Source: the human T2T-CHM13v2.0 reference genome, Homo sapiens
DNA: 64,000 bases
NCBI RefSeq assembly: GCF_009914755.1
Contig: NC_060944.1
Reading direction: 5' to 3' (one strand)
Shown here: positions 7,979-59,123 of the stretch, piece by piece
Layout of the letters: each line of letters begins with the position of its first letter
How positions within the stretch are numbered: position 1 is the first letter of the stretch
Made by a program: the position numbers and the translations under genes
The notes under the pieces: generated by a model
Databases searched by the model: none
Seen by the model: the letters and a program-made list of their open reading frames with translations, nothing else
Told to the model about the DNA's origin: nothing

Positions 7979-10114
7979 TTCTGTTTGTTTTCGTTTTTAA
8001 AAACATATAAACAGTTTGTGCTCAATTATAAATTTTCCCCTGATCCATGGAATGTATTCACTTAATTATTTGTTTGGGTATGTGAAACTTCCAACATGGT
8101 TCCAGAGTCAGGTCTATGCATAAAGGTATATTCAGAGAAGAATCAGGTATCCATCTCCATTCTCTCTCTACTTTCTACACCATTCCTGACAACACCCTGT
8201 AGGTGATCACTCTCATGGTCTCTTGGTTTTTTCCTTTGTGTGTTTCTTTTTTCCTGCATTGAGTAGAAAAATGAATATTTTCTTCTTTTGCTTTATTTAT
8301 TAAAGACACTTTCACTTTATAATGTATCTAGAAATCATACCTCAGTTTATAGCCATCTTCACCATTCCTCTGAACAGCTGCATAATACTTTGTTGTATAG
8401 ATGTACTATTAACACCATTTACTCAATGACTCTCCACTGTATAGGCGTGTGGGCTGTTTTCAATACTTTGCAGTTACAAACAATGCTGCAATTAATACAT
8501 TTACTTTAATTTTCCCCATTGGGGCTTGGATTGTCTTATTGGTCTGGCATTCTTACTGTAACTCTTTCAACCAGGGACAACCTAAGCTGATCGGTGAATA
8601 TCTTTTGTGAAAGACCTCTGTATCCTCCTGTCTTGGTTGACAACCTGTGGAAAGAAAAATGATTTGAAATCATCACAGATCTTTTCAATTCCAAGCTCTG
8701 TTCTGGACTCCAAAATAATTTTCCCATCTGTATGAGGAGGGCAGTTTTCTAGGATATGTCAGCAGGGATTTCATTCTAAATTCAATGGGAGGTTGTGGCT
8801 CAGGGCATCTGTTACAAGCTGGAAAGAACCTGGAGCCTATCTGGCCCCTAGGCACTCTGCAATCCTGGGGTCAGATACACATGGCTGGCTAGAACAGAGT
8901 CTGCAAGTGGCTCCAGTGTGCCTGAGGTCATCAGTGATGCTCACTGCTCTACCCCTGAAATGTACCCAGAGCCTGGAGAGACGCTATCTGGGCTCCTTAT
9001 CACAGAAAAACTTTGTAGTGCTGAGGTCTCTAGGTCTTCAGTGGAGGAGGGTGGTGTCAGTTGAGTTGTGCCTAAAACCACACTTTCTGACTTCTCTACT
9101 TACAAGTCACACTGAACATCGCAGCTGCCTTTTCTGGGTAATCTCTAACATTTTTTTTAAAAATGGAAACCTTTATCTTTGTTTCCTTTTTTTCATTTCT
9201 CCCCAACAAAGAAGCCAAGGTTGCCCGAATGGGGCCATCAGTCTCCGTACAATCAAGAAGTAACACAGTCAGGATTGCTCAGAGGGCCCCACGAATCTCA
9301 AATCCCTTATTTTTCTGTTGTTTTTTTTTCCCCCAGAAGGTAATTTCAGCTTTAGAAATGGACAGAGACTGTCCAAAATCCTATATCAGGTTGGTAGCAC
9401 AGATGGGGCTACAACAAAATCTGTGGAAGGAAAACACAAAGTTTTTCTTTCCCTGGGACCCAAGATGTAATGAAGGTGGCTATTGTAAACAAGTTTCATT
9501 CTTGGCTTCTAAGTGTAATAATTTCATTCCTATTTTGGGGAAATTAACTACCATATAAGCCCTGGAAGCCAGAGGCTGTGCCACTTTTTATAACAGAGCG
9601 GGAAAATCTGGATGCTTGTTTTCTCTGCCTCCACTGAGAGACAACCTCATATGAGCACATGCTGGGTTAATGTCATATGATGCACAAACTCTAAACTGGA
9701 CTTGGGAGCTAATGATAATAGGATGTGAACATTTATTCCTGGGACATTTATAGCAATGGCAGCTGTATTTGACTTTTCAGAAGAGAAATGGAAATGATGG
9801 TAGAGACATTGGCTGTGAGACATGTAACCTCCACCTGCTTTCAGGTATCACCAGTGAGCTCCACTAAGGCCAGTATCTGGCTGATTTTGACTGTGATTCT
9901 GCATTCATAGCCTTGCTTGCTTTTGCCTTTTCTTATAACTTGGGTTTATAGGTTCCCTAATGGTTTTGTGATCCATTTAATTTTAACTGAGCCAAGACTG
10001 ACTTCTTTGTAATTAAGAAGTGAATGACTGGGTGACTCTTGTTAGGGAATAGATGTGTGGAGAGCTCCATGAATTACTCTAAACCAACAATCACAGCTGG
10101 TGAAAGTTATTTAA

Positions 10115-10300
10115 AAAATTTTTTAAGATTTTATTTTTATTGTACACATTTAAGGTATACAACATGATGTTTTGATATACATATACATAGTTAATTACTA
10201 TAGTCAAGCCAATTAACATATTCATCATCCCACATAGTTTTCTTGTTTTGGGAAGACCACATAAAATCTACTCTCTTACCGAATTTCCAGTAGACAATAC
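10115..10300 (-). mobile_element. L1MA-type 3' end fragment (shared with right arm 56625-56820)
   Basis: ttaaggtatacaacatgatgttttgatatac...tagtcaagccaattaac motif. Confidence 0.7.
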
Positions 10301-12060
10301 TAATAATCAAGTAACCCAGTGACTTCTGCTCTGCAATAGCAGTGTGAGGAGCTCTGTGGAGATACTCTTTAACCAAACAACCATCTGGGAATTGTTCTAC
10401 ATGCATACATTTATTTTTAAAACTCTACTAAACCTTGAAAGAACACAGAGTGCCCGTGCCATTTGAGCCATAACCCACTATGTACTTTCTACCTCCCAGC
10501 TCAGCATGAGGGAAGCTGCACTTGGGGCATGTATAGCCAAGAACAGGGAAAATCCCTTTTCTCCCACCTCCCTGTCAAAGATTATGATGTCTCTCTAAGA
10601 AGAAAAGGCTGCAGGCATCACCTAACCTCCCTCCCAGGTGATGTTGTAGAGGTTGTATTGCAGGTGTGTGTGACCAAGAGGTATGAGGCTCCATTCTTCC
10701 ACCCAACACCACTTGTATTGTAGAGGGTGTACCCCAGGCATTGGAGGTAAAGAATATTGTGACCCCATACCCCCTGGCACAGCTAATTAGTAGGGTAGAG
10801 TTTTCAAGTTAGGGAATGCATGCCAACAACATCAGAGGCTACTGCTTATGCCCAGAACCATGTTGGTAAAACAAGGCTGCCACCCTGAGAGAAGTGGGCC
10901 ACTATTTCCAAAAAAAGCTCCATAGAAAAAGCTCACTGATTTTCCAATGGTGAAACCTAAGCTATAAGAACAGAGGGCTCCAAAGTCCTCCCAAAGAAAC
11001 TGACTATTATCTTGGAACAGAGTGTGAGGAATGTCTAGACTAATAGTGTTCTTGAAAACAATGGGAATTTTAGTGGTAAACCATGAAGAGGAGGTTGGCA
11101 GCTCCATGGCAGAAAATCTAATGATTAAGGAAACTGAACATACCACCTGATAAAGTAGCATTTGAGAATTTCCAGAAATATATTGAGGGTAAATTGTCAT
11201 GAAAAAGGGAGTTACCCATGACACATTTTAATGCTACCAATTTTGTCATAATAACATGTCAACGTAATTAGAACATATGGTATTAATGAAGGAAGTACAC
11301 ACACATATCAGTGGAAAAAAAAGAAACTTGGTGCCTTCGAAAATCTAGCAGACAATAAAGGCAGAATCCTGCATTATCCAAGAAATGTTAGATAAGTCAG
11401 TAAATGATATTAAGACAGATTACCAGCAATTCAGGGGAAATACTGGATTTGTATCTTACACGTTATCTCAAAGTATGTTTCAGATGGTCAAGAATTTAAA
11501 TATAAAGATTGAACTATAAAAGTATTCAAAGAACACGAGTGGAGTTTTGTAAAATGTTGATATGGGAATGACTTTCTGGAGCAAATTGGTATTGTTAACC
11601 ATATGCAAATAAAAAAATTTTGTTGGGAAAAATCTAACATATTGTAATATAAGCAATTAGAAATTCAAAAATATGAGTACATTCGTGGTGGGAATAAATA
11701 TAATCTATATTACATTGAAAGAACGTTTATAACATAAAAGAAAACAGATGATCCAATAGAAAAATGAGCATGAACCACATATATATGATTTATGGGAAAA
11801 GTAATGTAAGTAGATAACAGATGTATGAAAATAAATACAACTTCAACCAAAATTAAATAAATGTTATTTAAAACAAACACACAAGTTATTTTTTTGTTCC
11901 TATGGGATGGTCTTTTTACTACTGATTTTGGGCAAATTTCATTTGCCAGTAGTCTGCGTCTCAGTTATTGTGAAATGAATACCTTGATCGCTTAAGACCT
12001 TTCTTACTATGAGAAAGACTTCAGGGATCTAAGCTAAGGTCTCTGCCAGGGGAAGCGTGA

Positions 12061-12485
<425 letters not shown>

Positions 12486-14684
12486 AGTATGTCACTTTAT
12501 AATCACGTTCCTTTCATCTTCATGGTGTCCCCAAATCTATGTTTTTCTTTGATTGCACACCTTGTCTCAGTCATCCCATTACTCTGATTCCTGCTATTAC
12601 TTTGCTTTCTGTCTTGGCAAAACGAGTTCATCACAAGTCTTTCCTGAAAGGCTACCAAATCTTCCTTCCTTGGTCAACATCCTAGCAAAGAGAAATGACA
12701 TATGAAGACAGGTAGTTCCCAGCCCCAAGTCTGCTCCTGACTTCTAGAGTAAGCTTGATGGCTCCCCTGGACTCCAGTTTTCCCATCTTCATGATGAGGG
12801 TGTTTATCGAGATTATTTCAAAGAGGACTTCCAACTTCAAATTCAACAGAAGGTTGTGGCTCAGGGATCTATTATAAGCCAAGAAGCACATGATGCTTGT
12901 GCGTGATCCTTGTGATTCTGGACTCCAGGAGACACACACATGGCTGGCTAGAACCGAGTCTCTCCATCCCAGCATGTACCGGACAAGGAGATCCTAAGAA
13001 GACTGTCCCAAAATTGTCATCAGTGATTCTCTCTACTCAACCCCTGTGGAGCACACAGAGCCTGCAAATATGATAGCAGAGTTTTTAGTCTCAGCAAAAA
13101 CTCCTCTGCTAGCGAAACTGTTTCTAGGAGGAGCATGGTTGCAGGAGGCTGTCCCTGAATAACCATGTGTTTTCTGTCTGCAATGCAAATTCCAAGTAGT
13201 GAATTACCATACTAGCACCTCTGGGTAACTTCAGTATCATCATGCAGCCCCAAACTTCTCATCTTTCCCATCATTTTTGATCTCGCCTCACCATTACACT
13301 CAGAGATACTACAAGGCAGTAGGTAGTTTAGAGAATCCAGCCAAAAAGCCCTAGAGAGTCTACTGTCTCCAATCTCCACTTTGCTTATACAGTTGGGTAA
13401 AATGTAGGCCACAAGCTGGGGCTAGAACACAGAGTGGAGGAGAGCAGGGAACAGTAGCTGCTCTGGTGCTCACAATGAGATGAGAACAGTCGTGTGGACA
13501 ACTTCATGTCTTGGTTTCTAAGCATACGAGCACCATTCCCAGAAGTTGCAAAGTCCACATGCCTACTTCCCTGCCTTCTTGGAAGCCTCCACATGTGCAC
13601 TGGTTCATACAGTCAGAGGAACACACTCTGTGATGGACTGAGGACTGGGATAGAGAAAGAAGCAGATATGGAGATGGCAGGAAGTGTTTACTCTGGTAGC
13701 AGTGGCATCAGTGGCTGGGTATCTACTTCCAGGAAGACAAGTGGAAGAGGTGTCCAATTTGGCAATGTTGGTGGGCAGATGTGGTGTCACCATGCCTGGA
13801 GGCAGCAGTGGTGTGCTCTGTTGTGATTGGAGAGAAAAAGGCTGTGGGACTGGTATTGTTGAGGTATGTGTGCCCATAAAATCACTAAGCACTAGGCTGG
13901 GAGGACAAAGTATTATCTAGTGTGGAGAAGCTGAGGATGCAGCCTGCGATTAAAATATGGATAGAAAAACAGGTCAGGCCAATTAAAGGTGATCTTGTGA
14001 AATAAATTATTGCTGGCGGAGAAACTCATAAAGGGGTATCTCGCTGTCTAGCTCAATAAGAGAAAACACATTTTAGGGATGTTTTCAAGGTGATTGTAGA
14101 GTGTAGACTTCTACTTCCAGAGGTGGCAACATTTTTGCTGTTTCTGTTGCACCTGCTAATGTAAGGAGTGCCTGGAGTTTGATGGGGAGTTTGGAACCCT
14201 GTGAAAATCCAGTGTAAGAGAGATTTGTATGCTTTTGACTGCTCACAATGTGGCAGTCCTTTGTTACATTGTGGCACCTCCCTATTCACACCATATTTGA
14301 GACTTGGTGAGTGACAGAATTGGCCTCTTGTTGCAGGAATGAAACAAACCAGAGAGTCACTTTTCTTTACCCATTAGACCTAGGGCTGTGCTGATAATAT
14401 ACTCAGCAAATGATGCTTCTACCTGGAGCATTGAGAACTAAAAGACTAAAAGCAGCAACGATAAAGGGGCATTCTTTCTTAGCACAAGGTAGTTTTGTTG
14501 TTCACAGTGACACCTGATTTCAGGGTCATGGGTGACAGTGATGAGTGTCCAGGATTGCAGCAGTAGGACCCATGTCACACAATTGTTGAGGGGTGGTTCT
14601 GGCTGTGATCATGCTGCCTGGATACTCTTACTTCTTACATTGCCTCTGAGTCTGAATCTTCCGTCTTCTCAAAATTCTGTAAGC

Positions 14685-14980
14685 CGCATTTACAGATTGG
14701 GTTATCCAGAAAGCAAGAGCTGAGACACAGCTAAGAGGGCAAGTTGCCTTGTGGGGTCACACCTGTTACAGTAAAGGAAAGGAAGAAGGACTGGCAGAGG
14801 ATGCCATTGCCAACCTGACCTGACAACATCTCTGGCAACCCATCAGGGAGCTCTGGAGCAAGAATTTTCCATTAGAGGAGTCCAACATTGAGCAGAAAAG
14901 GTAGACCCTTATACCACAGCCTTATTCTTCCTTTAGCTGGGGCCCCTGGTTCTACGTGATCTGAGCTCAAACACTGAGGG
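14685..14980 (-). mobile_element. Truncated ERVL LTR (LTR16/LTR33-like); longer copy at ~51780-52200
   Basis: gggttatccagaaagcaagagctgagacacag... motif; cut at the 14980 deletion junction. Confidence 0.55.
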
Positions 14981-16894
14981 TTACTTTCTGTTCTAAATTG
15001 GATGGAAGGCTGTGTGATTAAGGGACATACTAAGAAGTGATAAACAGTGGGTTCCTGTTTTTACCTCCTAGTGCTGGCACCTGCTTACCCTGAGAAGGTT
15101 GGCTCATATGACTGGATGAAAGAGAGTCTCTCTGTCCCAGTTCCAGACAGGGCATAAGAAGTGGCTTGAGTTTTCCTTAAGGAGTCCAGTAGCTGCTCTA
15201 TTATTACTCCTCAAGGATGATTATGGAACCTCAGGGATTAGCACGGGCTCTTGGGCTCAGAAGGAAATCAGGGTCCTGGTGGATGTTGCATTGTTGGATC
15301 TAGGTGGTGGGAGCAAGAGGAGTAGGATAGAGAATATGTGTCTCCTCCTATAACTGAAAACTTCACATTTGCTGTACTCATGAAGCCACTGTGAGTGGTT
15401 TGAATGGTGTTTTAGGTAATCTAAATGTGCAAGGCAGACCCCAAATCCAGTCATTTTCCCCCTTCTTCTAACTTCCTACCCACATATTCAGATGTGCCCT
15501 CAGAAACCTCTAGGTAGTTTGGAGGCTCTGTTAGAGGGGCTCAGAAACCTCCACATGCTCAGGCCTTCACTTTTCCAGATGGTGCTACTGAGATTAGTGA
15601 GAACAAGGGATTTGTTGATGTCCGTTAGGAGTAGGACTTAGGTCTGGAAGATGGCACAGTACTGTCAGTTCCTGAATTCCAGAAAGGAATCAGAGAACAA
15701 ATGGTGCCTAGAAGGAGGATGAAGCTGGATAAGCGAATGTGGGTAAACAGACTCTCTTCTCTACCCAGTTACACAGTCTTCTAGGTGGGCAGGACCACGT
15801 CTTGATAGGCCTAAAACCAAAGGACACGTGTTCCAAAATTTTCTCTCTCCAAAATAGACCCTGATCATGCTGTGAATTCTTTTTTCCTTTCAATTAATAA
15901 TTTCCTTTGAAATTCAAATTAATTGGAAATAATGACAAGCTCCAAATATCAGGAGACATCTTCAGACATCAGTTGGAATCATAGAAATTACATTTGAAAC
16001 AATTGGATCAAGTCAGCTCTTTTCATACAATGGTACAATGAACCCATGTCTGGGAATCAGGGAGCCAGTTGTATTCTGGGCTTGACTTACTGAGTGAAAT
16101 TAGGAAAGGCATTCCTTTCTTCAGGGGTCCGTGCAATCAAGATAAAGCAAAGAGGGAAAATACATCTCTCTACAGTGATTTTATTTCTTCCTTATGCCCT
16201 TCAAGAATTGTTTTGTTAATCAAGTGTCAATATCTCTAGGGAGGCCATGCAGGGGCAGCAAAGTGAAACATGTTGGGGCCTCATACCTCTCTTTGAAGTC
16301 CTGGGTCTCCAAGCCCTTGTCTGGTTCCAGCACTCCTTGGACAAGGCTGTCTTCCCTAGTAACAGCACCTCTCATTGCTTGGGAAGTTGGGAGAACTGGT
16401 ACCCCATACGTGCCTTTGAAACTTGATTTGTGTCTGGAGGACACATCCAATGCATGGATCACATTCAGAATTATTGCAGAGGGAAGCAATGAAATGGCAG
16501 CAAGAAAATTAACATCTTTTCAACTCGCCCAAGACATGACTCACAGTTTCTTTTTTCTGAGTTGATCTCCATCAAGTGCATTAATAATTTTTCTCCAAGT
16601 TCTTTCAGTGAGCAGTTTCTAGGGGATCTTTGGCATAGTTGAAGACAATAGAAGGCAGAAGAGGAGGAATGAGTAACTTCCACAATCTCCTCCTCAAGTG
16701 GTATAAAATTACTCTATCATTAAGAAATTCCTAAGCAAACTTCACCCTCAACATAACTTGAAAACAAAGAATGCCAAAAATACAAAATACCTGTCAGTGA
16801 AAAGGGAACAAACAACAAATCCCAGTGCTGGGGACTCACACTTACCTGCCCTTTCCAGCCCCACTATAAAGCTTAAAGCTTTGCAAAATTGACC

Positions 16895-16898
<4 letters not shown>

Positions 16899-16924
<26 letters not shown>
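16899..16924. repeat. (CA)13 microsatellite
   Basis: Read directly from the sequence. Confidence 0.95.
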
Positions 16925-16925
<1 letters not shown>

Positions 16926-16934
16926 CCCACTGCT

Positions 16935-19900
16935 GAGGAAGGAGTGACATCACCAAGATGGTGAAATAGAAGGTCACCCAGTCGTGTCCCACCACAACCA
17001 TAAGAATTCTACACCATTCACAGGTTAAAGTCTCTCTGAGGGAGCCTCTGGATCCAGGGAGAAATTTGTGAAATGCCAGTGGAGCTCAAGCCCTTAGAGG
17101 ATTATTTTGAGAGTGCAGACAGACACCCAGGTGGCTGATCTGCTGAACCTGCTGCTCGCGAGTTCAATCCTGGAAGTGGCCCAGTCCTCCCAGGGTTTGG
17201 CTACTGTACCATGTTGACTTTAGCCTGCAACCAAAACCATCTGCCAAGGGGTCCAGAAGGAATTACACACACTTGGCAGAAAGGCTGCTCTGCACACTGA
17301 CATTGTCTGGATAGTGAACCTGAAAGTTGCCCTGTGGCTTTGTCCAGCCCCCATCAACTAAAGTCCCAGCTTAGAGCTGCTTACACAACTCACAGGGAGA
17401 CCCATACATATCTCACAGGCCAGCAGTCTGAGCCTCCCGGATAGGCATGCCATCCTTTGTCCCACAGCAGGTCTAGATGGGATCTGCTCTAAGCTCCAGC
17501 CCATCTTGCCATAGTTGGGGAACTATCCTGTCAGTGCTGAGATCTGCTGGAAGACATGTACTGGCCTGGACCCAAAAGATTGGCTCTTCAGCTTCCATCC
17601 CACAGCAGATCCTGAGGGGATTCCAGTTGCAGCTTTTGTCCTTCCTGCTGAAATTGGAAAACTCTCTTGTCTGTGCAGGAACTTGCTGGGAGACGTGCTT
17701 ACCTGTAAACCAATGAGACCAGGTTTTCAGCCTCTGCCCCACAGCATATTGTGAGGGGGCCCAGTCTCAGCTCCCCTTCTGACTGCAATTGAGGAACTAC
17801 CACATGTGCTAAAATCTTCTGAAAGATGTGTGCCTATCTGAGCCAATGAGATGGACACTCCATTCTCTCCCCCACAGCAGATCATGAGAGGGCCCAGTTT
17901 CAGTTCCAGCCAACCCTGCTGCAATTGGGGAACTATGCCACTTGTTCAGAGTCCTCCCTGAAAATGTGCTTCTGCCTGAGCCAACATGACAGGCATGCCA
18001 GTCTCTGTCCCATGAATGGACTTCTTGCCACAGTAGATCCCAAGTGAGCCCAGTCTCAACTCTAGCCACTCTCACTGCAGTTGGGAACCCATCTGCCTAT
18101 GTAGAGACCTGCAAAAAATTTCATCCATCTGAGACATAGCAACATTTTTGGACTATGATTTCTCACCAGCATTCCCACATGTCCCCAGTACCCTCCTTGG
18201 GTCTTCTGCATGTCCATTTAAACTAGAAATCTGCGTTAACTTCAGAGCCTTGCAAGACTTACAGCAAGCCTGGGCTCAGAGTGTCCTCTAGTGTTGAGAC
18301 AATTGCAATGGTCTCAGATACAGGAAACTCATTAAGCGGTCTGTTTGGAATCTCTGGAAGGCCCTCTGAATAAGAATAAGAGCAAACAAAGCCAGACTGT
18401 GAAGATTAAAATGAATATCTAATCTTTAAATGTGTAGACATTGTTGCACATCCACAAGCATCAAGAGCGTTCAGAGAAATATAACCTGACCGAATATGAC
18501 AAAATAAGATGCCAAAGACTGACCCTTAAGTGATGGAGATGTGTGATTTCTCAAACGAAGAATTCAAAATAGCTGTTTTAAGGAAGCTCCACAAATTTCA
18601 AAAAAAACCCCTACAGAGTATCTGATATACTTTGGCTGTGTCCCCACTGAAATCTCATCTTGAATGGTTGTTCCCATAATCCCCATGTGTAGTGGAAGTG
18701 ATCCACCGGGAGGTAATTGAATCATGGGGACAGTTACCTCCATGCTGTTCTCATGATAGTGAGTGAGTTCTCATGAGATCTGATTGTTTTATAAGGGGCT
18801 TTCCCTGCTTTTGCTCAGCACTTCTCCTTCCTGCCATCATGTGAATTAGGACATGTTTGCTTCCCCTTCCACCATGATTGTAAGTTTCCTGAGGCCTCCC
18901 CAGCCATGTGGAACTGTGAGTCATTTAAATCTCTTTCCTTTATAAGTTACCCAGTCTCAGGCAGTCTCTTATAGCAGCATGAGAATGGCCTAATACAGTA
19001 CATTGTTACCAAGTAGTCAGATGCTGCTGTAAAGATACCCCAAAATATGGAAGTGACTTTGGAATGGGGTAACAGGCAGAGATTGGAACAGTTTGGAGGG
19101 CTCAGAAGAAGACAGGAAGATGTGGGAAAGTTTGGAACTTCCTAGAGACTTGTTGAATGGCTTTGACCAAAATGCTGACAGTGATATGGACAATGAAGTC
19201 CAGGCTGAGGTGGTCTCAGATGGAGATGAAGAACTTGTTGGAAACTGGAAGAAAGGTGACTCTTGCTATGTTTTAGCAAAGAGACTGTTGACATTTTGCC
19301 CCTGACCTAGAGATCTGTGTGAACTTTGAACTTGAGAGGGATGATTTAGGGTATCTGGCAGAAGAAATTTCTAACCACAAAGCTTTCAAGATGTGACTTG
19401 GTGTTGTTAAAAGCATTCAGTTTTATGTATTAACAAAGATATGGCTTGGAATTGGAACTTATATTTAAAAGGGAAGCAGAGAATAAAAGTTCAGAAAATT
19501 TTCACCCTGACGATGTGCTAGGAAAGAAAAACCCATTTTTGGTGGAGAAATTGAAGCTACTGCAGAAATTTGTGTAAGTAATGAGAAGCCAAATGTTAAT
19601 TGCCCAGACACTGGGGAAAATGTCTCCAGGGCGTGTCAGAGGATTTCACAGCAGCCCCTCCCATCACAGGCCTGGAAGCCTAGGAGGAAAAAGTGGTTTT
19701 ATAGGCTGGGTCCAGGGCTTGCTTCTTTGTGCAGTCTTGGGACTTGGTGCCCTGCATCCTGGCCATGGCTAAAAGGGGCCAAGATACAGCTCAGGCCATG
19801 GCTTCAGAGGGTGCAAGCTCCAAGCCTGGGGAGCTTCCTTGTGGTGTTGAGCCTGTGGGTGCACAGAACTCAAGAATTGAGATTTGGGAACCTTTGCCTA

Positions 19901-21200: not shown

Positions 21201-21219
21201 CAATAACAACAATAAAAAT

Positions 21220-46716: not shown

Positions 46717-47054
<338 letters not shown>

Positions 47055-47252
47055 TCAGTGAGATGGTAGAGGTTTCATATTGATTCAGATGTTAACCTTT
47101 CCCCAGTGACTGCTTTTTAATACCGTTTGCTTCCTTTCTTATTGGATTGTCCAGATTATTTCAATCTATTTGTAGGAGTGCTTATTATTTAAATATGATT
47201 CACTATTTGCTTTTATACATTAACAAATATTTTTCTGGTGAGTTGTTAACTA

Positions 47253-49007
<1,755 letters not shown>

Positions 49008-49924: not shown

Positions 49925-51135
49925 GGTGCATTTGTCACAAGGAATGAACCAGTATTGATACATTATTAACTAAAGTCCAGACTTTGTTCATATTGCCTTT
50001 GCTGTTACCAAGGTTCTTTTTGTTTCAGGAGCCCATCCAGGACAATGTGGATTATAATTAGTGGTCATGTCTTCTTAGGCTCCTCTTGGTTGTGACAGTT
50101 GCACACATTTTCCTTGTTTTTGAAGACCTTGACAGTTTTGAGGAGTACTGCTCAAGTATTTTATAGAATGTCCCTCAACTGAGATTTGTCTGATGTTTTT
50201 CTCATACTGGGGTTGTGGTTTTTTGGAGGAAAACATCAGAGGTAAAGTGCCCTTCTTATCATGTAATATCCAGGGTACTGACTTCAACATGATTTACTGT
50301 TGATGATGTTGACCTAGATGACCAGTCTGAGGCAGTGTTCGTCAAGTTTCTACACTGAAAAGTCAACTTTTCCCCCTATCCTTGCATACTATACTCTTTG
50401 AAAGGAAGTCACTGCACAACCATATGTAAGATATTCCTTAAAGGGGAAGTATCTAAATAAATTGTTTGGAATTATTCTATAAAAATGATAATTATAATTA
50501 TTGATGTCAGATAATTGTTTATTATCCCTCATTTATTTACTTACTCAATTGTTTATTTATATCAGCGTGGATTCATAGATATTTATTACATACATTCGTT
50601 ATAACTTGTTTTGTTGCTGAAACAGTAAGAAGGACGCTTTTGAACATTAAAAGCCACAATTCTCAGTAAAGATATTAGTTATAAGTATGTAAGCACTATA
50701 TAGCACAGAAAACACTTTATAAAGAAGAAAATATGAGATACACCAAGGAGATATAGATAAAAACACAGTAACAGTAGGAGAATTGAACACACTGTATTGG
50801 TATAAGACAAACCAAGTGGACAAAAAAGTAAACAAGGATACAGAGGACACACCCAGGCCTTAAATACTTATATCAACAAAAATGAAATAAGAAGTGTAAA
50901 TAAATCAAATTTTCAACAAAAGAAGAAAAAGAGAGAATAAGGCCAAAAAAAAGCAATAATAAAGATAAAAGCAAATTTTTGAGGTCAAGAAGAGACAAAC
51001 AGTAGCTCTAATTAATAGATTTAAATGTTGTTTTTGAAAAAATTACAAAATAGGTGAACCATTTGCTGCTATAGTCAAGATGAAAAGGAGTGAAGAACAG
51101 CTAAATAAAATCAAGTATAATGGAGGGAATCACCA
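49925..51135. mobile_element. Old L1M fragments (L1MC-like 3' part antisense ~49925-50620; ORF2 pieces sense ~50620-51135)
   Basis: gaaccagtattgatacattattaactaaagtcc motif; A-rich degenerate ORF2. Confidence 0.55.
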
Positions 51136-51194
51136 CCAAAAGAGGGAAAAAAGAAAGCCCTGAGACTCCTTTGTAGACCAGGTTCCTTTCTCAC

Positions 51195-51270
51195 CTCCTG
51201 GCTGCTGTGCTGACCCCCAAGGTCCTGAGGATGAGGAGGCTGAGCAAGGGACAAGGCCACTGGTTGTCAT
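51195..51270 (-). pseudogene. Third, more decayed PI3/WFDC-type exon 1
   Basis: ATG ACA ACC AGT GGC CTT GTC CC- TTG CTC AGC CTC CTC ATC CTC AGG ACC TTG (MTTSGLVP/LLSLLILRTL after a 1-nt shift); ends ggag|gtgag; 5'UTR, promoter and intron start also align to PI3. Confidence 0.7.
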
Positions 51271-51549
51271 CTGTCTGGGCATTGGGTAAGGGCTCCTATT
51301 CTGTGTCTTCCCTAACATACAGCAGGGGCTGTGGATTTCAAGGATCATGGTGAATAATGTTTTAGCTTTACTAAGCAGGGCTCCAGACAAACATCATAAT
51401 AATTAAAGGGCAGACTCTCTAAGTAGCATGTCTGCTTAGTCAAAAGAAGAGATTTATTCTAAATTTTTAGCAGGATACCCTGTCCTGAGTAGGGCATAGT
51501 TACACCCAGGAACGAGAATGTGAGTCCTACCACCAGGTAAGCCACTGAC

Positions 51550-52200
51550 ATCAGCAGTGATCGTAGCTGAAGGTGGGAGACTTTAAAATGAGAATACAGG
51601 AGGGTGATGATGAGAACCAGCTGCCACCCACACAACAACTGCAGAGGCCACAGCTGTTGTGTACCCCCTTCCCTTCCACCTTCTTATGGTTTATCTCAGA
51701 GGGAGAGCCCATCAGAGCCTGGGAGAAGCTTCCCAAAGTGTGTGGAGCCCGGATCCCAGCAGTGCCAGGGGTGCACTGTGGCTGACAGAGGTACTGCTTG
51801 GATGCCCCTTCAAGGAGCACCTTGTTGCCCAGCTGCATGGAGTGTGGTTAGTTAATTGCTGCCAGCCACTGCTCGACCTCAGGCACAACCTCAGTTTTTG
51901 AGCTGAGATCACACAGAACCAGGGCCCTCCAGCCAAAGGCAAAGTAAGGCTGTAGTATGAGATTCTACCCTTCATGCCCAATGTTGAACTTCTCTTATAA
52001 AAAAATTCTTGCTCTTGCTCTTGCTCCAGAGCTTCCTGTTGGGCTGACAGAGATGTTGTCAGGACAGTTTGGCAATGGCATCCTTTGCCTAATACTGCTT
52101 CCTCACCTTTACTTTCACAGGTGTGACCTCACAAGGCAACTTGCATTCTTAACTCTGTCTCAGCCCCTGAGAACCCTGAGCTTGTTGGATAACCCAACCT
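51550..52200 (+). mobile_element. ERVL internal end plus LTR16/LTR33-like LTR
   Basis: Resembles recalled ERVL internal/LTR junction (ggggtgcactgtggctgacagaggtactgc...cccagctgc); paralogous to 14685-14980. Confidence 0.5.
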
Positions 52201-55200
52201 GCAAAACACAGCTCACAGATTTCTGAGAAGCCTGAAGATTCAGGATCAGGACCATAGTAAGATATGAGTGTCTAGGTAGCATGACAACAGCCAGAACCAC
52301 TTCTCAACAATTGTGTGATGTGTACACAGCTGCTGCAGTCCTGGACACTCATCACTGCCACCCATGACTCTGGAATTGGGTATTGCTGTGGACAACAATA
52401 CTACTTTGTTCTGGGAAAGAATGCCCCTTCATCCTTGCTTCTTTGAGTCACTCAATGGAGATTCAAGGTGACATATGGGAACATTACATTTGCTGAGCAT
52501 GTTTGTGCAGCCCTAGGCCTCAGGGGTGAAGGAAAGTGCCCCCTGTTTTGTTCTGTTTTTGCAGTAGGAACCCAGCTCTGTCACTCAGCAAGTCTCAAAG
52601 ATGGCCTTAAATAGGGAGATCCCACAACATAACAAGGGAGTTCCACATAGTGGACAGTCAAAAGCATGGACACATCTCCCATACCGTGGATCTTCCTAGG
52701 GTTCCAAACTCCCCTTGAAACTTACACATTGGCAGGTATAAAGTGAACAGCACAATTGTTCACCTCTGGAAATAGAAGGGCCACTCCCTAATCACCATGG
52801 AAATATTCCTAAGAATGTGCCTTTTCTTATTGGGCAGAAGGCCAGATATCTTTTTTTATCAGTTTTTTCAATGGCAGTAATTTATTTCACAAGGTCACCT
52901 TTAATGGGCCTGACCCATTTTTCTGCCTATATTTTAATCACAGGCTGTATCTTCAGCTTCTCCACACTAGATGATACCTTATCCTCCCAGCCTACTGTTC
53001 AGTGTTTTTATGGGCACGCTCATTCCTCAACAATACTGGTCCCACAGTATTTTTCTCTCCAATCACAACAGAGCATACCACTGCTGCCTCCAGGCATGGC
53101 AACACCATGTCTGGCCACCAACATTGCCAAATTGGACACCACTTCCACTCTCCTCACTGGAAATAGATGCTGTAGCCATTTATGCCACTGCTGCCGGAGT
53201 AAACTCTCACTTCCTACCACCTCCATGTCTGCTTTTTTCTATCACCAATTCTCAGTCCATTGCAGTGTATACCTCTGACTGTGTGAACCGGTGCATATGC
53301 ACATGTGGAGGCTGCCAAGAAGTCAGAGAAACAGGCATGTGGACTTTGCAGCTTCTGCTGGGAATGGTGTTTGTAGGCTTAGAGGCTAAGACAGGAAAGT
53401 TGCCCACACAACCATTCTCATCCCATTGTGAGCACTGGAGCACCTACTATGCCCCTCCTTTCCTTCACTCTGTGTTCTAGCCTCAGCTTATGACCTACAG
53501 TTTTAATCAACTGTAAAAAGGCAATGGAGATTGGCAATAGTAGGGACTTCACCGCCTCTTGCCTGGATTCTCTAATCCACTTACTTCCTTGAAAAGGCAT
53601 TTACAATTCTGTAATCATGAGGGGAGATCAAGAATTATGAGAAAGATGAGAAGTTCAGGGGCTGCATGATATTACTGAAATTACACAGAGACTCTAAAAT
53701 GGTAAATCAATGCTCAGAATTTGCATTGCAGTCAGAAAAGATATGGTTATTCTGGGATAGCTCCACTGCTACCATGTTCCTCCTAGAGGCACAATGTTCT
53801 CTAACAAAACAGTTTTTGCTGAGACTGGAAACACTGATAACATATTTGCAGGCTGTGTGTGCTCCATGGGGGTTGAAAGCGGGGATCACTAATGATAATT
53901 TTTGAACAACCTTCTTAGGCCTTCCTTGTCCAGTACCTCCTGGGATGGGGACACTCTGTTCTAGCTAGCCATGTGTGTCTGTCTTTTGGAGTCCAGAGTG
54001 ATAAGCGTCATGCACAAGTACCAGGTGCTTCTCAGCTTGTAACAGATTCCAACTTTTCTTGAATTTGAAGTTGGAAACTCCCTTTGAAATATCCAGACAA
54101 AACCCCCCATCTTGTGGATGGGAAAACCGGAATCCAGGGATCCATCAAAGTTTAATCTAGAAATCAGGGGCAGAGCTGGGGCTGGGAACTATCTGTTCTA
54201 ATATGATGTCATTCCCTTTGGTAGAATGTTGAAAAAGCAGGAGGATTCATTAGCCTTTCAAAAAAGACTAGTTGAGGGGTTAATTTGCCAAAAAGCACAG
54301 TGACAATAGGAATTCCAGGAAAATAGAATAATCCAAGCCAAAATGTGGAATCAAAGAAAAATATAGATTTGAGGAGACCCCAAAGAAGTCAGCAACTCAA
54401 CTATAAAGTAACCCTCCACAATATGCTAATTCTGCCACCATCCAGGTCTTCCGCATCACCTTGGTGTTCTCACTTGCGGTGTGCCCACTGCACGAGCTTT
54501 CTGCTATTCTACTGCACATTCACAGCTCACTTGGAAGAAACTTTAGTAAGATTCTTGGAATCTTTCTCACAGCAGGAAGAGTCCTAAGAGACCGAGCTAC
54601 TCCTTTTACAATAATTGAGACACAGACCGCTGGCAAATGAAATTTGCCCCAAATTTGGAAGACCATCTCATAGGCATGACAACAAAAGACTCATGTGTTT
54701 GTTTTAACTTGGTGTGGTTTTTTTTAATTATGGGGGTAGTTTTATTTATTTTCAAATATGTAGTAGCTACTTGCATTACTTTTTAATAAACCACATGTTC
54801 ATGGTCTATGTTTATTTTTCTATGAGAAGATCTATTTTCCTTATTGTGTTTTAAAAATTCTTTCAATATATTATAGAATATCTCTATTCCCACCATATGT
54901 GTTTATACATTTTAAAAATTTCTGTTTTCTTACTGTATGCATGATTTTCCCTGTAAAACTTTTTATTTGCTTGTAGTTAATGATATTAATTTACTTCAGA
55001 AAATCATTCACGTGTAAATATTCTACAAAACTTGTCTCATGTTTACTTTGAATACTTTTATAGTTCGATCTTTATGTTTAAATCCTTGACCACCTAAAAC
55101 GTACTTTGAAATAATGGGTGGAGTGGAAATCCAGTATTTACTCCTTGAATTGCCGGTAATCAGTCTAAACATCATTCGCTGAATTACTAACATTTCTTAA

Positions 55201-55513
55201 GTGATGTGGAATTCTGCCCTTATCATTTGTAAAATTCTCAAAGGCATTGAGTTTATCTTTTATTCCATTGAGATGTGTGCATTTTCTCACCATTAATGTA
55301 TGTTCTAATTATGTTGACATATTTTTGTGATAATTTTGGTGGAATTAAAATGTGTCATGGGTAACTCTCCCATGACAATTTATCATCAATATTTTCCTGG
55401 AAAACCTCAAATGCTTACTTTATCAGTTGGTATGTTCAATTTCATTAATCATTGGATTTTTATCTCATGGGCTTCCAACTTACTCTTCATTGTTTATCAC
55501 TAAAACCCACTAA

Positions 55514-55818
<305 letters not shown>

Positions 55819-58800
55819 TCCATAGTTTTTAAGAGCGCCGTTAGGCTGGATATTCCTTATACTCTGTTCCTAATACTGTCAGTTCCTTAGGGAGGACTTT
55901 GGAGCTCTCTATTCTTATAGCCTGCCTCTCACTTTTGGAAAATCACTGAGTTCCTTCTAAGGAGCTGTTTTGGAAAGAGTGGTTCACTTTTCTCAGAGTG
56001 ACAGCCCTGCTTTACCAACTGGGCTCTGACCATGAGCCAGAACATCCTCTGATGTTGTTGGCAGGCATTCACTGGCATGAAAATTCTGCCTGGCAAATGA
56101 GCTGTGCCGAGGGCTATGGGGGTCTCAGCATTCTTGACCTACAATGCCTGGGATAGAACCTCTCCACTACAAGTAGTGTTGGGTGGAAGAATGGAGCTCT
56201 GTACCTCTTCATCACACTCACCTGGAATCTCTGCAATACAACCTTGGAATGGGTTTGAGAGATGCTGGCAACCTTTTGCCTCTGGTGAGATATCATAACC
56301 CTTTAAAGGGAAGTGAGAGGAAAGAGACTCTCCCATTACTTGGCTAGATGTGCCCTGAGTGAAGCTTCCCTCATATTGAGCTAGGATATAGAAAGTATAG
56401 AGTGGGTTATGACTCAAATGCTGTAGACACTCTGTGTTCTTTCAAGGTTTAGTAGAGTTTTAAAAATAAATGTATGCACTTAAGACAATTCCCAAAGACT
56501 TCAAGTGGCTGTTTTAAAAAATAACTTTTATCAAGTATGATTGTTTGGTTTGAGGGTATTTCCATGGATCTCCTTACACTGCTATTCCAGAGGAGAAGCC
56601 ACCAGGTCACTCAACTCTTAGTATCATCTACTGGAAACTGGCTAAGACAGTATTTATGTGCTTCTCTCACAATAACAGGAAGATAACTATATCACACAAT
56701 GGATATGGCAGTTGGCTTGACTGCAGTAATCATTTAACTATGTATATGTATATCAAAACATCATGTTGCATACCTTAAATATGTACAATAAAAATAAAAT
56801 CTAAAAGAAATAAAATAAAAATAACTTTCACCAGCTGTGGTTGTTGGTTTGGAGTAATCCAAGGAACTCTTCACACCATTCCCTAGCAAGACTTGCCCAA
56901 TTATTTTCTTCTTAATTTCAAAGAAGTCTATTTGGCTCTGTGAAAATACAAGTATCTGACTGGTTCACAAAACCACTAGGAAACCTAGAAATTCAAGTTA
57001 AAAGAAAAGGCAAAAACAAAGAAGTCATTGAATGCAGAATCACAGTCAAAATTAGTCAGATATTGGCCTTTGTGGAGCTCATTGGTGCTACCTCAGAGTA
57101 GATGGAGGTTACACATCTCTCAGCCAATATGCCAAAGCCAGATGCTCTTCAATGCATGGGCCATCATTTCCATTTCTCTTCTGAGAAGTCAAATACAGCT
57201 GCCATTGCTGTAACTGCCCCAGAAATGAATCTTCACCTCCTACTATCACTAGCTCCCAAGTGCAGCCCAGAGTTTGTGCATCTGATGATCTGAACACGGC
57301 ATGTACTCACATAAGGTTGTCTCTCAGTGGAGGCAGGGAAAACAAGTGTCCAGACTTTCCTATTCTGTTATAAAAAGTGGCAGAGCCTCTGGATTTCAGG
57401 GCTTATGTGGTTAATTCCCCCAAAATAGGAATGACATTCTTATGCTTAGAAGCCAAGAAATGTCTACAACACCCACACTCATTACATCTTGAGTCCTGGA
57501 GCAAGGAACACTTTGTATTTTCTTCTCGCAGATTATATTCTATGTAGCCCCATCTGTGCTACCAACTTTCTGTAGGATCTTGGACAATCACTGTCTGCTT
57601 CTGATGCTCAGAATACCTGCTAGAAAAAAAAATAAAATAATAAACAAAAAAAATAAGAAGGGCTTTGAGGTTAGTGGGCCCTCTGTGCATTCATGACTAT
57701 GATATTCCTTGATTATACAGACACTTATGCCTCATTCAGGCAACTATGGATTCTTTGTTGAGGACAGATGAAGAAGGGAAAGAAAGATGAAGGGTTCTGG
57801 GACCACAAAAACTGTTTTAAATTACCAAGAGAAAGCAGATGCAGTATTCTATGAGATTTGTGAGTAGAGAAGCCAGAAAGTATTATTTTAGGCACAACTC
57901 AACTGATACCACCCTCCAACAAATACCTGGAGTCCTCTGGCAACACAGCTTTACTGAACCAAGGAGCCCAGATAGCATCTCTCCAGGCTCCGGATGCACC
58001 CCAGGGATAGAGCAGTGAACGTCACAGACGACCTCAGGTACATTGGAGCCGCTCTCCAGGGCCTTGCAGACTCAGTTCTAGCCAGCCATTTGTGTCTGTC
58101 CCTAGGATCACAGAGTGTCCAGGAGTCAGGCCAAGCCAGGCCCTGAATTCTTTCCAGATTGTAATAAATGTCCTGAGTCATAATCTTCCATTGAATTTGG
58201 AGTCGAAATACCTGCTGACATATAGAAAACTGCCCTCATCTAACAAAGGGGAATATTGCTTAGGATTGAGGAGTAAAGCTGAAAATGAAAAAAATCAGTC
58301 CTGATTTCAAGTCATTTTTCTTTCCATAGGATGTAGACTAAGACAGGAAGATGCAAGCATCTTGCTCATAAAACCATTGTTCCATCAGTTTGGCCTGACG
58401 CTGGGTGAGAGGGGTAGGGTTATAATAGAAATTCCAGACCAACAGAACAATATAAGTCAAAGTGTGGAATTACAGTAAACATATTGATTTCAGCATTATT
58501 TATGACCGCAAAATGTTGGGAACAACCAAAATACCCATACAGAAAAGAGTGGTTGTATAAATGATAGTACAACTATAAAATGAAGTACTGTGTAGCTATT
58601 CAAAGGTACACGGAAGATGTCCATGAACTGATGTATGTTAATTATAAATACATTGTGGAATGATAAATTTAAAGTGTCTTATAACAATGAATACAAAATA
58701 AGAAAATATCCATTTACCTACTCATTGCAGGAAAAAAGAAAAAAGAAAGGAAAAACCCAGAGACCAATGAGAGTGGTCACCTATGTGGTCAGGAATTGGT

Positions 58801-59123
58801 AGAAAGGAAAGAGAGAATGGAGATGGATATCTGATTCTTCTCTGAATGTACCTTTATGCACAGATCTGACTGGGGAGCCATGTGAAAATTTCACATACTC
58901 GGATGAATAAATAAATGAATAAACCCCACAGGATTGAGAGATAATTTGTAATCAAATACAAACTATTTGTTTGACAAACCAACCAGCAAACAAATAAACC
59001 ATAGATATGAGAGGACCATGAAGATTAAAGAAACTTCCATTTGCGAAACCATTATAAAACGTAATGAAGATGAATAAACACTCATTACAGAATATCAAAT
59101 CAACCATTATCATGAGGTTTTCT

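What the first reader, a model, noticed from the sequence alone, without database searches (positions are those of the whole stretch)
7980..58995. Hidden ~51-kb palindrome-like structure: old inverted duplication of the PI3 region
Seen: three collinear reverse-complement blocks (7980-14980/58995-51889, 14980-17900/46120-42650, 26850-27655/39065-38270) around a 10.6-kb L1-rich spacer. Both arms share the L1 5'UTR, an L1MA 3' fragment and an ERVL LTR; MER30, AluSc and AluY are right-only and one AluS is left-only. Inference: the duplication post-dates the shared old elements, pre-dates the MER30/AluS insertions, and created a head-to-head trappin gene pair. At roughly 80% identity it would fall below usual segmental-duplication thresholds.
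Basis: partly seen in the sequence, partly recalled or inferred. Interest (0 to 1): 0.8.

Follow-up and report, generated by a model that had tools for sequence, protein, structure and literature searches.

The report
Ancient inverted duplication around PI3
About 20 kb of DNA around the human elafin gene PI3 was copied in mirror image tens of millions of years ago, leaving a dead stub of a second PI3 gene; it is a real but ordinary genomic fossil.

Summary
They give 10,176 aligned bases at 79.8% identity (K2P 0.24). Except for a few short old repeats, the left arm matches nothing in the T2T genome but the right arm, so this is a true inverted duplication and not two repeats lying head to head. 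The inner block is the PI3 promoter, exon 1 and 150 bp of intron 1. The left copy keeps an open signal-peptide frame but has lost its splice donor and the rest of the gene. Arm-specific insertions with target-site duplications and empty sites in the other arm post-date the event: two Alus so checked (the other four Alus lie in arm-specific DNA) and a hAT-type transposon. An L1 5' end predates it. A shared 'ERVL LTR' was not found. The one clear retroviral relic is a complete 2.4-kb MaLR-type LTR element, present only in the left arm and about as old as the duplication. Estimated age is 55-80 My (early primates). No accessible paper describes it.

The parts
8004..27653 (.). Left arm of the inverted duplication (the decayed copy)
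   Evidence: Outer and inner ends of the collinear minus-strand blocks.
38272..58973 (.). Right arm, which carries the live PI3 gene and LINC02597
   Evidence: gene table.
8004..14979 (.). Block 1, left. It pairs with 51889-58973.
   Evidence: Three sub-blocks: 3012, 1088 and 2450 aligned bp; 76-79% identity; K2P 0.25-0.29. Genome-wide it matches only the right arm apart from short repeats.
51889..58973 (.). Block 1, right
14977..17886 (.). Block 2, left. It pairs with 42707-46121.
   Evidence: 535 and 2314 aligned bp; 79% and 83% identity.
42707..46121 (.). Block 2, right
26865..27653 (-). Block 3, left: relic of the PI3 5' flank, exon 1 and the first 150 bp of intron 1
   Evidence: 777 aligned bp, 80.8% identity, K2P 0.226. 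The only genomic matches are the PI3 5' end (79%) and, weakly, WFDC12. 80.7% identical to PI3 against 44-51% to SEMG1, SEMG2 and WFDC12.
27017..27095 (-). Exon-1-like signal-peptide frame of the relic: 26 codons, open, 16 of 26 residues as in PI3. The donor GT reads AT.
38272..39052 (+). Block 3, right: PI3 promoter, exon 1 and the start of intron 1
   Evidence: gene table.
39053..42706 (+). Right-only unique DNA: the rest of PI3 (intron 1 to exon 3) plus 2.26 kb of 3' flank. It has no left-arm counterpart.
   Evidence: nhmmer finds nothing in 17000-28500. Unique in the genome (2 of 2 candidates scored).
27654..38271 (.). Spacer. 27615-35082 is L1-derived, there is an Alu at about 36181-36520, and 35083-38271 is PI3 distal upstream DNA.
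   Evidence: tblastn with L1 ORF2 stretches. BLAST to L1-bearing loci. 37470-37975 is homologous to the WFDC12 upstream region. No inner palindrome.
16934..17886 (+). 5' end of an old L1, shared by both arms (right copy about 43650-42707, minus strand)
   Evidence: A common 5' boundary in the scored genomic copies. Collinear with L1-bearing loci L007-L009. 929 aligned bp at 77.5% between the arms.
17887..25433 (+). Left-only continuation of that L1, with ORF2-like stretches at 24235-25433, interrupted by the LTR element
18623..21016 (+). Complete MaLR-type LTR element, left arm only. LTRs are at 18623-18998 and 20604-21016, the ends read TG...CA, and the 5-bp target duplication matches at 4 of 5 positions.
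   Evidence: LTR pair: 398 aligned bp, 79.9% identity, K2P 0.238. No other copy in the window. At least 20,916 candidate copies in the genome, with full-length copies of about 2.35 kb at 80-82% (40 scored).
10118..10308 (+). Short high-copy repeat shared by both arms (right copy about 56839-56591)
   Evidence: 2663 candidates, 40 scored, 75-82% identity. 82.4% between the arms. The L1 3' end identity is recalled only: 0 of 3 fetched copies had ORF2-like sequence upstream.
12177..12491 (-). Left-only Alu with a target duplication. The site is empty in the right arm.
45055..45569 (-). Right-only hAT-type non-autonomous transposon (about 230 bp, terminal inverted repeats, 8-bp target duplication) with an Alu nested at about 45253-45553. 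The site is empty at left 15510.
55522..55820 (.). Right-only Alu with a target duplication. The site is empty at left 11064-11068.
46122..51888 (.). Right-only 5.77 kb between blocks 1 and 2. It holds two Alus, an LTR-like direct pair (47011-47459 / 49147-49512), a 465-bp high-copy repeat (48542-49007) and at least 1 kb without dispersed matches (50850-51889).
   Evidence: The unique stretch next to the junction favours a deletion in the left arm.
16000..17000 (.). Patch of 88-98% identity between the arms (right 43595-44557). It covers LINC02597 exon 1 and its upstream DNA.
   Evidence: heterogeneity chi-square 127.4, 19 df.
1508..3415 (-). Fourth mirrored block, left: a WFDC15-like pseudogene transcribed as LOC101929863. 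Its partners lie outside the window at window-scale 93075-96202 (chr20:46965075-46968202).
   Evidence: K2P 0.22-0.285; Pfam WAP.

Best explanation
This is the decayed remnant of one inverted (mirror-image) duplication.

Origin. In an early primate ancestor, PI3 together with at least about 15-20 kb of its downstream flank was copied and laid down head to head. The inner breakpoint is about 530 bp upstream of the PI3 start, and about 3 kb of PI3 upstream DNA was left as a single-copy spacer.

Later history. Both arms then drifted neutrally to about 80% identity.
- The right arm kept the working gene.
- The left arm lost most of intron 1, exons 2-3, the 3' flank and about 5.8 kb further out. 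It keeps only promoter, exon 1 and 150 bp of intron, with the splice donor gone.
- The right arm lost the body of an old L1 whose 5' end both arms still share.
- Alus, a hAT transposon, a MaLR element and L1 pieces then landed in one arm or in the spacer, stretching the spacer to 10.6 kb.

Function. The structure has no function of its own today. At 80% identity the arms can no longer pair.

Shown: the homology, its uniqueness in the genome, the collinearity, the state of the relic, and the arm-specific insertions with empty sites.

Inferred: that it was a single event, the direction of the deletions, that a complete second gene ever existed, and the date.
For: - Three collinear inverted blocks give 10,176 aligned bp at 79.8% identity and K2P 0.241, with similar K2P in every block (0.20-0.29).
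- Left-arm pieces match only the right arm genome-wide, apart from short old repeats.
- The relic is 80.7% identical to PI3 but only 44-51% to SEMG1, SEMG2 and WFDC12. Its TATA-like box, ATG and 26-codon frame are kept and its donor is lost.
- No trace of PI3 exons 2-3 is found in the left arm.
- Post-duplication insertions are proven by target duplications plus empty sites.
- None of the 6 Alus in the arms is shared.
- The shared L1 5' end is closer between the arms (77.5%) than to any other scored copy (65-72%).
- Date: K2P 0.241 divided by twice 1.5-2.2e-9 substitutions per site per year gives 55-80 My. These rates are recalled, not taken from a call.
- The neighbouring SEMG1/SEMG2 tandem duplication has K2P 0.19-0.21 in its flanks. 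It is present in 'most primates' (PMC3209443, passage seen).
- A left-only LTR element of MaLR build has LTR-LTR K2P 0.238. If it belongs to the MST/THE1 group, print says that group is primate-specific (PMC10735291, Introduction and Results read).
Against: - Identity along the arms is significantly uneven: 72-90% in 500-bp bins, chi-square 127 with 19 df. Gene conversion or constraint has therefore acted, and the date is a minimum.
- The two arms differ by four large indels whose direction I could not polarise without an outgroup.
- The right arm holds only the first ~950 bp of the shared L1. That needs an extra deletion, or a more complex origin.
- A fourth block of equal divergence may mean the event was larger than stated here.
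- Whether any paper already shows this structure is unknown. Hurle 2007 and Clauss 2005 are not held, and figures and supplements were not visible.
Confidence: 0.75

Rival explanations
1. The event was much larger: one mirror duplication of the whole cassette PI3 - downstream flank - semenogelin precursor - WFDC15. Its present limits would be about window 1508 to window-scale 96202 (95 kb). The left copy would later have lost the semenogelin part (34 kb on the right against 4.6 kb, mostly L1, on the left).
For: - A fourth inverted block, L 1508-3415 / R 93075-96202, lies in the same order and orientation as the other three, with K2P 0.25, 0.285 and 0.22.
- It is unique in the genome (2 of 2 candidates scored).
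- It holds WAP pseudo-exons (Pfam WAP 21.9 bits, cut-off 20.8). nr names the chimpanzee counterpart 'WFDC15A-like'.
- The two lncRNAs LOC101929863 and LOC105372630 start at homologous points and both have a 158-bp second exon.
- The right-hand copy has an intact 80-aa counterpart in a Pongo protein record. This fits the right side being the original.
Against: - No remnant of the 34-kb semenogelin region is detectable between left 3415 and 8004.
- Kato 2010 (Results read) implies that WFDC15, where present, lies between WFDC5 and trappin. That is the left side, and it would make the right copies the derived ones and require a separate event.
- A fourth block falling into collinear order and orientation by chance is not improbable.
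Confidence: 0.35
2. The duplication is far older (eutherian, like the WFDC12/PI3 split), and the arms look only about 20% diverged because gene conversion kept homogenising them.
For: Identity is patchy, with a 1-kb stretch at 88-98%. Inverted arms are known substrates for conversion; this is established knowledge, recalled.
Against: - The truly old paralogue pair WFDC12/PI3 stands at 60-62% identity in the same locus.
- All six sub-blocks have similar K2P.
- Conversion would have tended to erase the arm-specific insertions.
- Kato 2010 reports a single trappin in most eutherians (Results and Discussion read).
Confidence: 0.08
3. The blocks are separate small duplications, or two independent repeat insertions of one family in opposite orientation, that merely line up.
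For: Block 1 is about 7 kb, roughly the size of a full L1.
Against: - Blocks 1-3 have no other long match in 3.1 Gb.
- No L1 ORF2-like stretch lies in the aligned blocks.
- Order, orientation and divergence agree across the blocks.
Confidence: 0.03

Closest known systems
Human segmental duplications / low-copy repeats (usual catalogue definition of at least 1 kb and at least 90% identity; definition recalled)
   Same: An intrachromosomal duplication of non-repeat DNA that includes a gene, with arms of about 20 kb.
   Different: 79.8% identity puts it below the catalogue threshold. It is a fossil, not a current substrate for rearrangement.
[quoted passage not shown]
   Same: Duplication of a trappin (PI3) gene within the WFDC locus.
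   Different: Those families are tandem, recent (3-16 My) and expressed. Trappin-18 maps to the WFDC12 position. Here the copy is inverted and of primate age, and it is reduced to promoter plus exon 1. It is 80.7% identical to PI3 but only 48% to WFDC12. Kato 2010 lists human as having a single trappin gene and does not mention this relic.
WFDC12-PI3 common ancestry (Hurle 2007 as reported in Kato 2010; Hurle not held)
   Same: Also a head-to-head, inverted pair in the same locus. I see it as 60-62% identity over about 1.5 kb of gene 5' part and upstream DNA.
   Different: Much older, and both genes are alive. The present duplication is a second, later round on the PI3 side.
SEMG1/SEMG2 tandem duplication next door
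   Same: Similar age class (K2P 0.19-0.21 against 0.24) and the same gene superfamily (REST/WFDC locus).
   Different: Direct rather than inverted, and both copies are functional.
Sex-chromosome palindromes (recalled)
   Same: Inverted arms around a short spacer.
   Different: Those arms are kept above 99% identical by gene conversion. Here only a 1-kb patch stands out (88-98%), and the rest has drifted.
ERVL-MaLR LTR retrotransposons, MST/THE1 group (Zuo 2023, PMC10735291, Introduction and Results read)
   Same: The left-only element has two about 390-bp LTRs, a total length of 2.4 kb, TG...CA ends, a 5-bp target duplication and a very high copy number.
   Different: Subfamily not assigned. 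It is not shared by the arms, so it is not the 'shared ERVL LTR' of the finding.

Membership tests
Inverted duplication / palindrome with spacer | Two arms in reverse-complement orientation, collinear, made of non-repeat DNA | tested here: met
   Uniqueness shown.
Catalogued segmental duplication | At least 90% identity over at least 1 kb (definition recalled) | tested here: not met
   79.8% overall. The best 1-kb stretch is about 88-90%.
Unprocessed (duplicated) pseudogene of PI3 | Retains promoter and intron sequence of the parent, and is closest to that parent | tested here: met
   5' flank, exon 1 and 150 bp of intron 1 align at 80.8%. It is closest to PI3.
Unprocessed (duplicated) pseudogene of PI3 | Disabling lesions | tested here: met
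   Exon-1 donor lost. Exons 2-3 absent.
Functional second trappin gene | WAP-domain exon present and spliceable | tested here: not met
   tblastn with PI3, WFDC12, WFDC5 and SLPI finds no WAP remnant between 3500 and 38000.
   The shared old repeats found are 10644-11121, 8345-8497 and 14761-14979. They have few, short, 65-84% matches with variable starts and none shows LTR ends. No repeat library is on hand to name them.
ERVL-MaLR element (left-only, 18623-21016) | Two LTRs in direct orientation flanking a short internal part; TG...CA ends; short target duplication | tested here: met
   (398 bp, 79.9%). The termini and the 4-of-5 target duplication were read from the sequence.
ERVL-MaLR element (left-only, 18623-21016) | Internal part with only a gag-like frame and no pol or env (Zuo 2023) | not tested
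   The inner genes were deliberately not analysed. Six frames that fell inside the element were scanned in Pfam before I knew what it was, and none matched.
ERVL-MaLR element (left-only, 18623-21016) | Subfamily (MST or THE1) from the LTR sequence | not testable with these tools
   This needs Dfam or Repbase LTR references. A search of print for a 23-base LTR stretch found 0 papers. The MST/THE1 likeness is recalled.
hAT-type non-autonomous transposon ('MER30') | Terminal inverted repeats, 8-bp target duplication, about 230 bp | tested here: met
   Print says MER30 derives from Charlie12, a hAT element (PMC5753468 and PMC1914374, passages seen). The assignment to MER30 itself was not tested.
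L1 5' end shared by both arms | Common 5' boundary among copies; collinear with elements carrying an L1 reverse transcriptase | tested here: met
   RVT_1 at E 1e-43 in L008, though that open stretch may belong to a younger nested L1..
WFDC15-like pseudogene (outer block) | WAP four-disulfide-core exon; three-exon layout; named relatives | tested here: met
   Pfam WAP 21.9 bits against a cut-off of 20.8. nr 'WFDC15A-like' at 95% identity and a Pongo WAP protein. Exon layout.

The most novel reading that the evidence does not exclude
The 51-kb structure is only the core of a mirror duplication of about 95 kb. At its birth in an early primate that event would have doubled the whole innate-defence and semen-clotting cassette (PI3, the semenogelin precursor and WFDC15), briefly giving two head-to-head trappin genes. 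The left copy was then dismantled piece by piece, while a 1-kb stretch upstream of LINC02597 has been kept nearly identical in both arms by conversion or by selection on a duplicated regulatory element.
Probability: 0.3. Interest if true: 0.5.

Novelty: new member of a known kind. Interest (0 to 1): 0.35.

Why it matters
- It adds a missing step to the history of a fast-evolving locus studied for innate immunity and reproduction. Humans, listed as having a single trappin gene, carry the stub of a second one in mirror orientation. The locus went through at least two rounds of inverted duplication: WFDC12/PI3, then this one.
- It gives datable markers for primate comparisons: shared L1, arm-specific Alus, a hAT element and a MaLR element.
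- It explains the origin of two or three lncRNA annotations (LOC101929863, LOC105372630 and part of LINC02597) as by-products of duplicated genes or promoters.
- It illustrates how much duplication lies under the 90% catalogue threshold.
- It does not point to a new mechanism.

Tried and rejected
- Two independent L1s head to head: rejected. The arms are unique in the genome and carry no ORF2-like sequence in the aligned blocks.
- Left relic as a WFDC12, trappin-18 or SEMG relative: rejected.
- Search for PI3 exons 2-3 in the left arm with nhmmer and tblastn: nothing found.
- Search for an inner palindrome in the non-L1 part of the spacer: only chance-size pairs.
- Pfam on 20 frames of at least 70-75 aa from 17000-38360: no true family. 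L1 was therefore mapped by tblastn with open stretches of another copy.
- Test of the 190-bp shared repeat as an L1 3' end: 0 of 3 fetched copies had ORF2-like sequence within 3 kb upstream, so that name stays recalled.
- Search for remnants of the semenogelin region in left 3380-3660 and 7180-8010: only same-strand repeat matches.
- Naming the LTR from print: 0 papers hold a 23-base stretch of it. Zuo 2023 gives class features but no sequence that I could use.
- First protein word search with a WAP pseudo-exon: no candidate. A second copy then gave two named hits.
- Literature: five searches and passages of Kato 2010, Lundwall 2011 and Lundwall 2020 mention no inverted duplication or PI3 pseudogene in man. 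Figures and supplementary files (for example Kato Fig. 4A and the Lundwall dot-plots) were not visible and may bear on this.

Full report
OBSERVATION. A minus-strand self-comparison of the window gives three long collinear blocks (57 HSPs at E<=1e-10). They are L 8009-14979 / R 58968-51889 in three pieces broken by arm-specific Alus, L 14977-17886 / R 46121-42707, and L 26865-27653 / R 39052-38272. A more permissive run on a 124-kb extended region gives the same blocks with outer ends at 8004 and 58973. Pairwise MAFFT of the six sub-blocks gives 3012, 1088, 2450, 535, 2314 and 777 aligned columns at 76-83% identity. Together that is 10,176 columns, 79.8% identity and K2P 0.241. Without CpG sites it is 9,971 columns, 80.6% and 0.229.

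IS IT MORE THAN REPEATS? The annotation's soft-masking covers 11.8 kb of the window and, inside block 1, only the left-only Alu. Because old repeats escape such masking, I searched the whole T2T genome with left-arm pieces.
- With 7980-17900 the five best matches are the right arm and the rest are Alus (39 of 7294 candidates scored).
- With Alu-free pieces the right arm is the only long match.
  - 7980-12160: besides self and the right arm, only a 190-bp repeat at 10118-10308 (40 of 2663 scored).
  - 12495-17900: only a repeat of about 960 bp from 16936 on (40 of 124 scored).
  - 7980-10110, 12495-16930 and 10310-12160: all 14, 12 and 32 candidates were scored, and they gave only short 65-84% matches at about 8345-8497, 14761-14979 and 10644-11121.
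- Block 3 matches only the PI3 5' end and, weakly, WFDC12 (40 of 52 scored).

About 8 kb of the aligned 10 kb is therefore not detectable repeat.

WHAT WAS COPIED. Block 3 is the PI3 5' flank (530 bp), exon 1 and 150 bp of intron 1.
- In the left copy the TATA-like box, the ATG and a 26-codon signal-peptide frame are kept. The donor GT reads AT.
- Over 488 columns the relic is 80.7% identical to PI3 but 44-51% to SEMG1, SEMG2 and WFDC12. It is a PI3-lineage copy, not a WFDC12 or trappin-18 relative.
- Nothing of intron 1 beyond 150 bp, exon 2, exon 3 or the 2.26-kb 3' flank is left in the left arm (nhmmer; tblastn with four WAP proteins).
- The right-arm stretch 39053-42706 is unique in the genome.
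- In its place the left arm has about 9 kb made of the body of an old L1 (ORF2-like 24235-25433), a nested LTR element, an old Alu and further L1 pieces.

That the left one was ever a complete gene follows only from the collinear blocks on both sides of the gap.

SHARED AND ARM-SPECIFIC ELEMENTS.

Shared, so older than the duplication:
- The first ~950 bp of an L1 (16934-17886 / about 43650-42707). It has a common 5' boundary among the scored genomic copies and is collinear with L1-bearing loci. One of those loci carries RVT_1, although that open stretch may be a younger nested L1. The two arms are 77.5% identical here, against 65-72% to other copies.
- A 190-bp high-copy repeat (82% between the arms). 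That it is an L1 3' fragment is my recollection only, and 0 of 3 fetched copies had ORF2-like sequence upstream.

Arm-specific, so younger:
- A right-only element of about 230 bp with terminal inverted repeats and an 8-bp target duplication, with an empty site in the left arm and an Alu nested in it.
- A right-only Alu at 55522-55820 and a left-only Alu at 12177-12491, each with a target duplication and an empty site in the other arm.
- Two more Alus in the right-only 5.77 kb.

None of the 6 Alus in the arms is shared. The names MER30, AluSc, AluY, AluS and L1MA could not be tested without a repeat library.

THE VIRUS-DERIVED PARTS.

A shared 'ERVL LTR' could not be shown. The three weak old repeats shared by the arms have few, short matches with variable starts and no LTR ends.

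What is real is a complete LTR retroelement at 18623-21016, in the left arm only, nested in the L1.
- Its two LTRs are at 18623-18998 and 20604-21016.
- It has TG...CA ends and a 5-bp target duplication matching at 4 of 5 positions.
- The LTRs are 79.9% identical over 398 bp, K2P 0.238.
- There is no second copy in the window.
- The genome holds at least 20,916 candidate copies, with full-length relatives of about 2.35 kb at 80-82% (40 scored).
- This build is that of ERVL-MaLR elements as described in print (Zuo 2023, PMC10735291, Introduction and Results read): short, with LTRs around an internal part that has only a gag-like frame.
- From recollection the LTR looks like the MST/THE1 group, which that paper reports as primate-specific. 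The subfamily needs LTR reference sequences that I do not have. I did not use the inner part to name it, and I did not examine its gene.
- Its LTR-LTR distance equals the arm-arm distance, so it entered at about the time of the duplication.

A second LTR-like direct pair sits in the right-only 5.77 kb (47011-47459 / 49147-49512; 72% identity, K2P 0.35). It is of another family and unnamed.

THE SPACER AND THE BREAKPOINTS.
- Of the 10,618-bp spacer, 27615-35082 is L1-derived and starts exactly at the left arm's inner end. An Alu lies at about 36181-36520.
- The remaining ~3 kb (35083-38271) is PI3 upstream DNA. 37470-37975 is still 62% identical, in inverted order, to the region upstream of WFDC12.
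- There is no inner palindrome. The original spacer was therefore about 3 kb, and the inner breakpoint on the PI3 side is at 38272.
- The right arm has 5.77 kb (46122-51888) that the left arm lacks at a clean junction. It contains at least 1 kb without dispersed matches next to the junction (40 of 136 scored), so I read it as a deletion in the left arm.

- Window 1508-3415 matches, again inverted and in collinear order, window-scale 93075-96202, downstream of SEMG2 and outside the window (loci L006, L010, L014). K2P is 0.249, 0.285 and 0.221 over 1436, 1024 and 492 columns.
- Nothing else in the genome matches it. The right side is itself locally duplicated.
- These blocks are WFDC15-like pseudogenes.
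  - Pfam WAP scores 21.9 bits against a cut-off of 20.8 for one copy.
  - A human frame of the second right copy is 95% identical to an nr record named WFDC15A-like of chimpanzee and 81% to a Pongo WAP protein.
  - The Pongo record keeps all eight cysteines, while the human and chimpanzee readings leave the frame.
- LOC101929863 (left) and LOC105372630 (right) are their mirrored three-exon transcripts, each with a 158-bp second exon.
- Between this block and block 1 the left side has 4.6 kb, mostly L1. The right side has 34 kb holding SEMG1 and SEMG2.
- Either one large event was followed by loss of the semenogelin copy on the left, or there were two events of like age. I cannot decide between these here. 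No remnant is detectable, and Kato 2010's text suggests WFDC15 normally lies on the WFDC5 side.

AGE.
- K2P 0.241 with 1.5-2.2e-9 substitutions per site per year (rates recalled) gives 55-80 My.
- Internal yardsticks agree.
  - The shared L1 is older (pairwise 65-72% to its kin).
  - The arm-specific Alus are younger (87-90% to their best genomic matches).
  - The SEMG1/SEMG2 duplication, present in most primates (PMC3209443, passage seen), has K2P 0.19-0.21.
  - The MaLR-type element has 0.238.
- Identity is uneven along the arms (chi-square 127.4, 19 df, P 5e-18). A patch at 16000-17000 / 43595-44557 reaches 88-98% and covers LINC02597 exon 1. Conversion or constraint has acted there, so the date is a minimum.

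MECHANISM AND MEANING. The anatomy is two inverted arms, a short single-copy spacer and a breakpoint just upstream of a gene. That is the anatomy of a fold-back or template-switch inverted duplication; this step is inference. The structure does nothing today. Its effects are historical: a second PI3 promoter and exon 1 left as a stub, duplicated promoters that now give lncRNAs, and a locus that has been through at least two inverted duplications (WFDC12/PI3 at 60-62%, and then this one).

KNOWN OR NEW. Kato 2010 (Results and Discussion read) lists human as having a single trappin-2 gene and mentions no relic. Lundwall 2011 and 2020 (passages) do not mention it either. Five full-text searches found nothing. 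Hurle 2007 and Clauss 2005 are not held, and figures and supplements were closed, so prior depiction cannot be excluded. A genome-browser self-alignment track would very likely show it. I rate it a new member of a known kind, of moderate interest to students of this locus and low general surprise.

Noticed in passing
window 991-3415 and chr20:46965075-46968202 (window-scale 93075-96202; loci L006, L010, L014): A mirrored pair (one left copy, two tandem right copies) of WFDC15-like pseudogenes, transcribed as LOC101929863 and LOC105372630 with matching three-exon layouts. A Pongo protein record keeps the full WAP motif, while the human and chimpanzee readings go out of frame. This suggests recent loss in the human/chimpanzee lineage.
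   Followed up: partly
window 16000-17000 and 43595-44557: A 1-kb patch of 88-98% identity between arms that are otherwise about 78% alike. It covers LINC02597 exon 1 and its upstream DNA. It is not a CpG island (CpG observed/expected 0.09-0.12). The cause is conversion or constraint, undecided.
   Followed up: partly
window-scale -12434..-10422 (L002, L003) against window 39636-37470: An older inverted homology between WFDC12 with its upstream DNA and PI3 with its upstream DNA: 60-62% over about 1.5 kb. It marks an earlier round of head-to-head duplication in the same locus.
   Followed up: partly
window 8703-9012 ~ 12767-13102; 53618-54373 ~ 57759-58493: Each arm holds an older direct repeat about 4.1 kb apart (58-64% identity) with no other genomic match among the scored candidates. 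It is either an older local duplication or two copies of a very old repeat.
   Followed up: no
window 47011-47459 and 49147-49512: An LTR-like direct pair (72% identity, K2P 0.35) in the right-only 5.77 kb, next to a 465-bp repeat with thousands of copies (48542-49007) that overlaps a LINC02597 exon. Family unnamed.
   Followed up: partly
window 31343-32409 and 59126-60188: Two L1 fragments in opposite orientation at 91% identity, one in the spacer and one just outside the right arm. They are much younger than the arms and not part of the palindrome.
   Followed up: no
window 17427-18136 and 42707-43145: The shared L1 5' end contains tandem units of about 137 bp. The right arm's homology ends inside this array.
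   Followed up: no
window-scale 69006-77562 against 82937-90997 (L004-L006): The SEMG1/SEMG2 tandem duplication has a period of about 14.3-14.7 kb and 79-84% identity. A more diverged piece further upstream (62609-63471 against 82035-82904) stands at 74%.
   Followed up: partly
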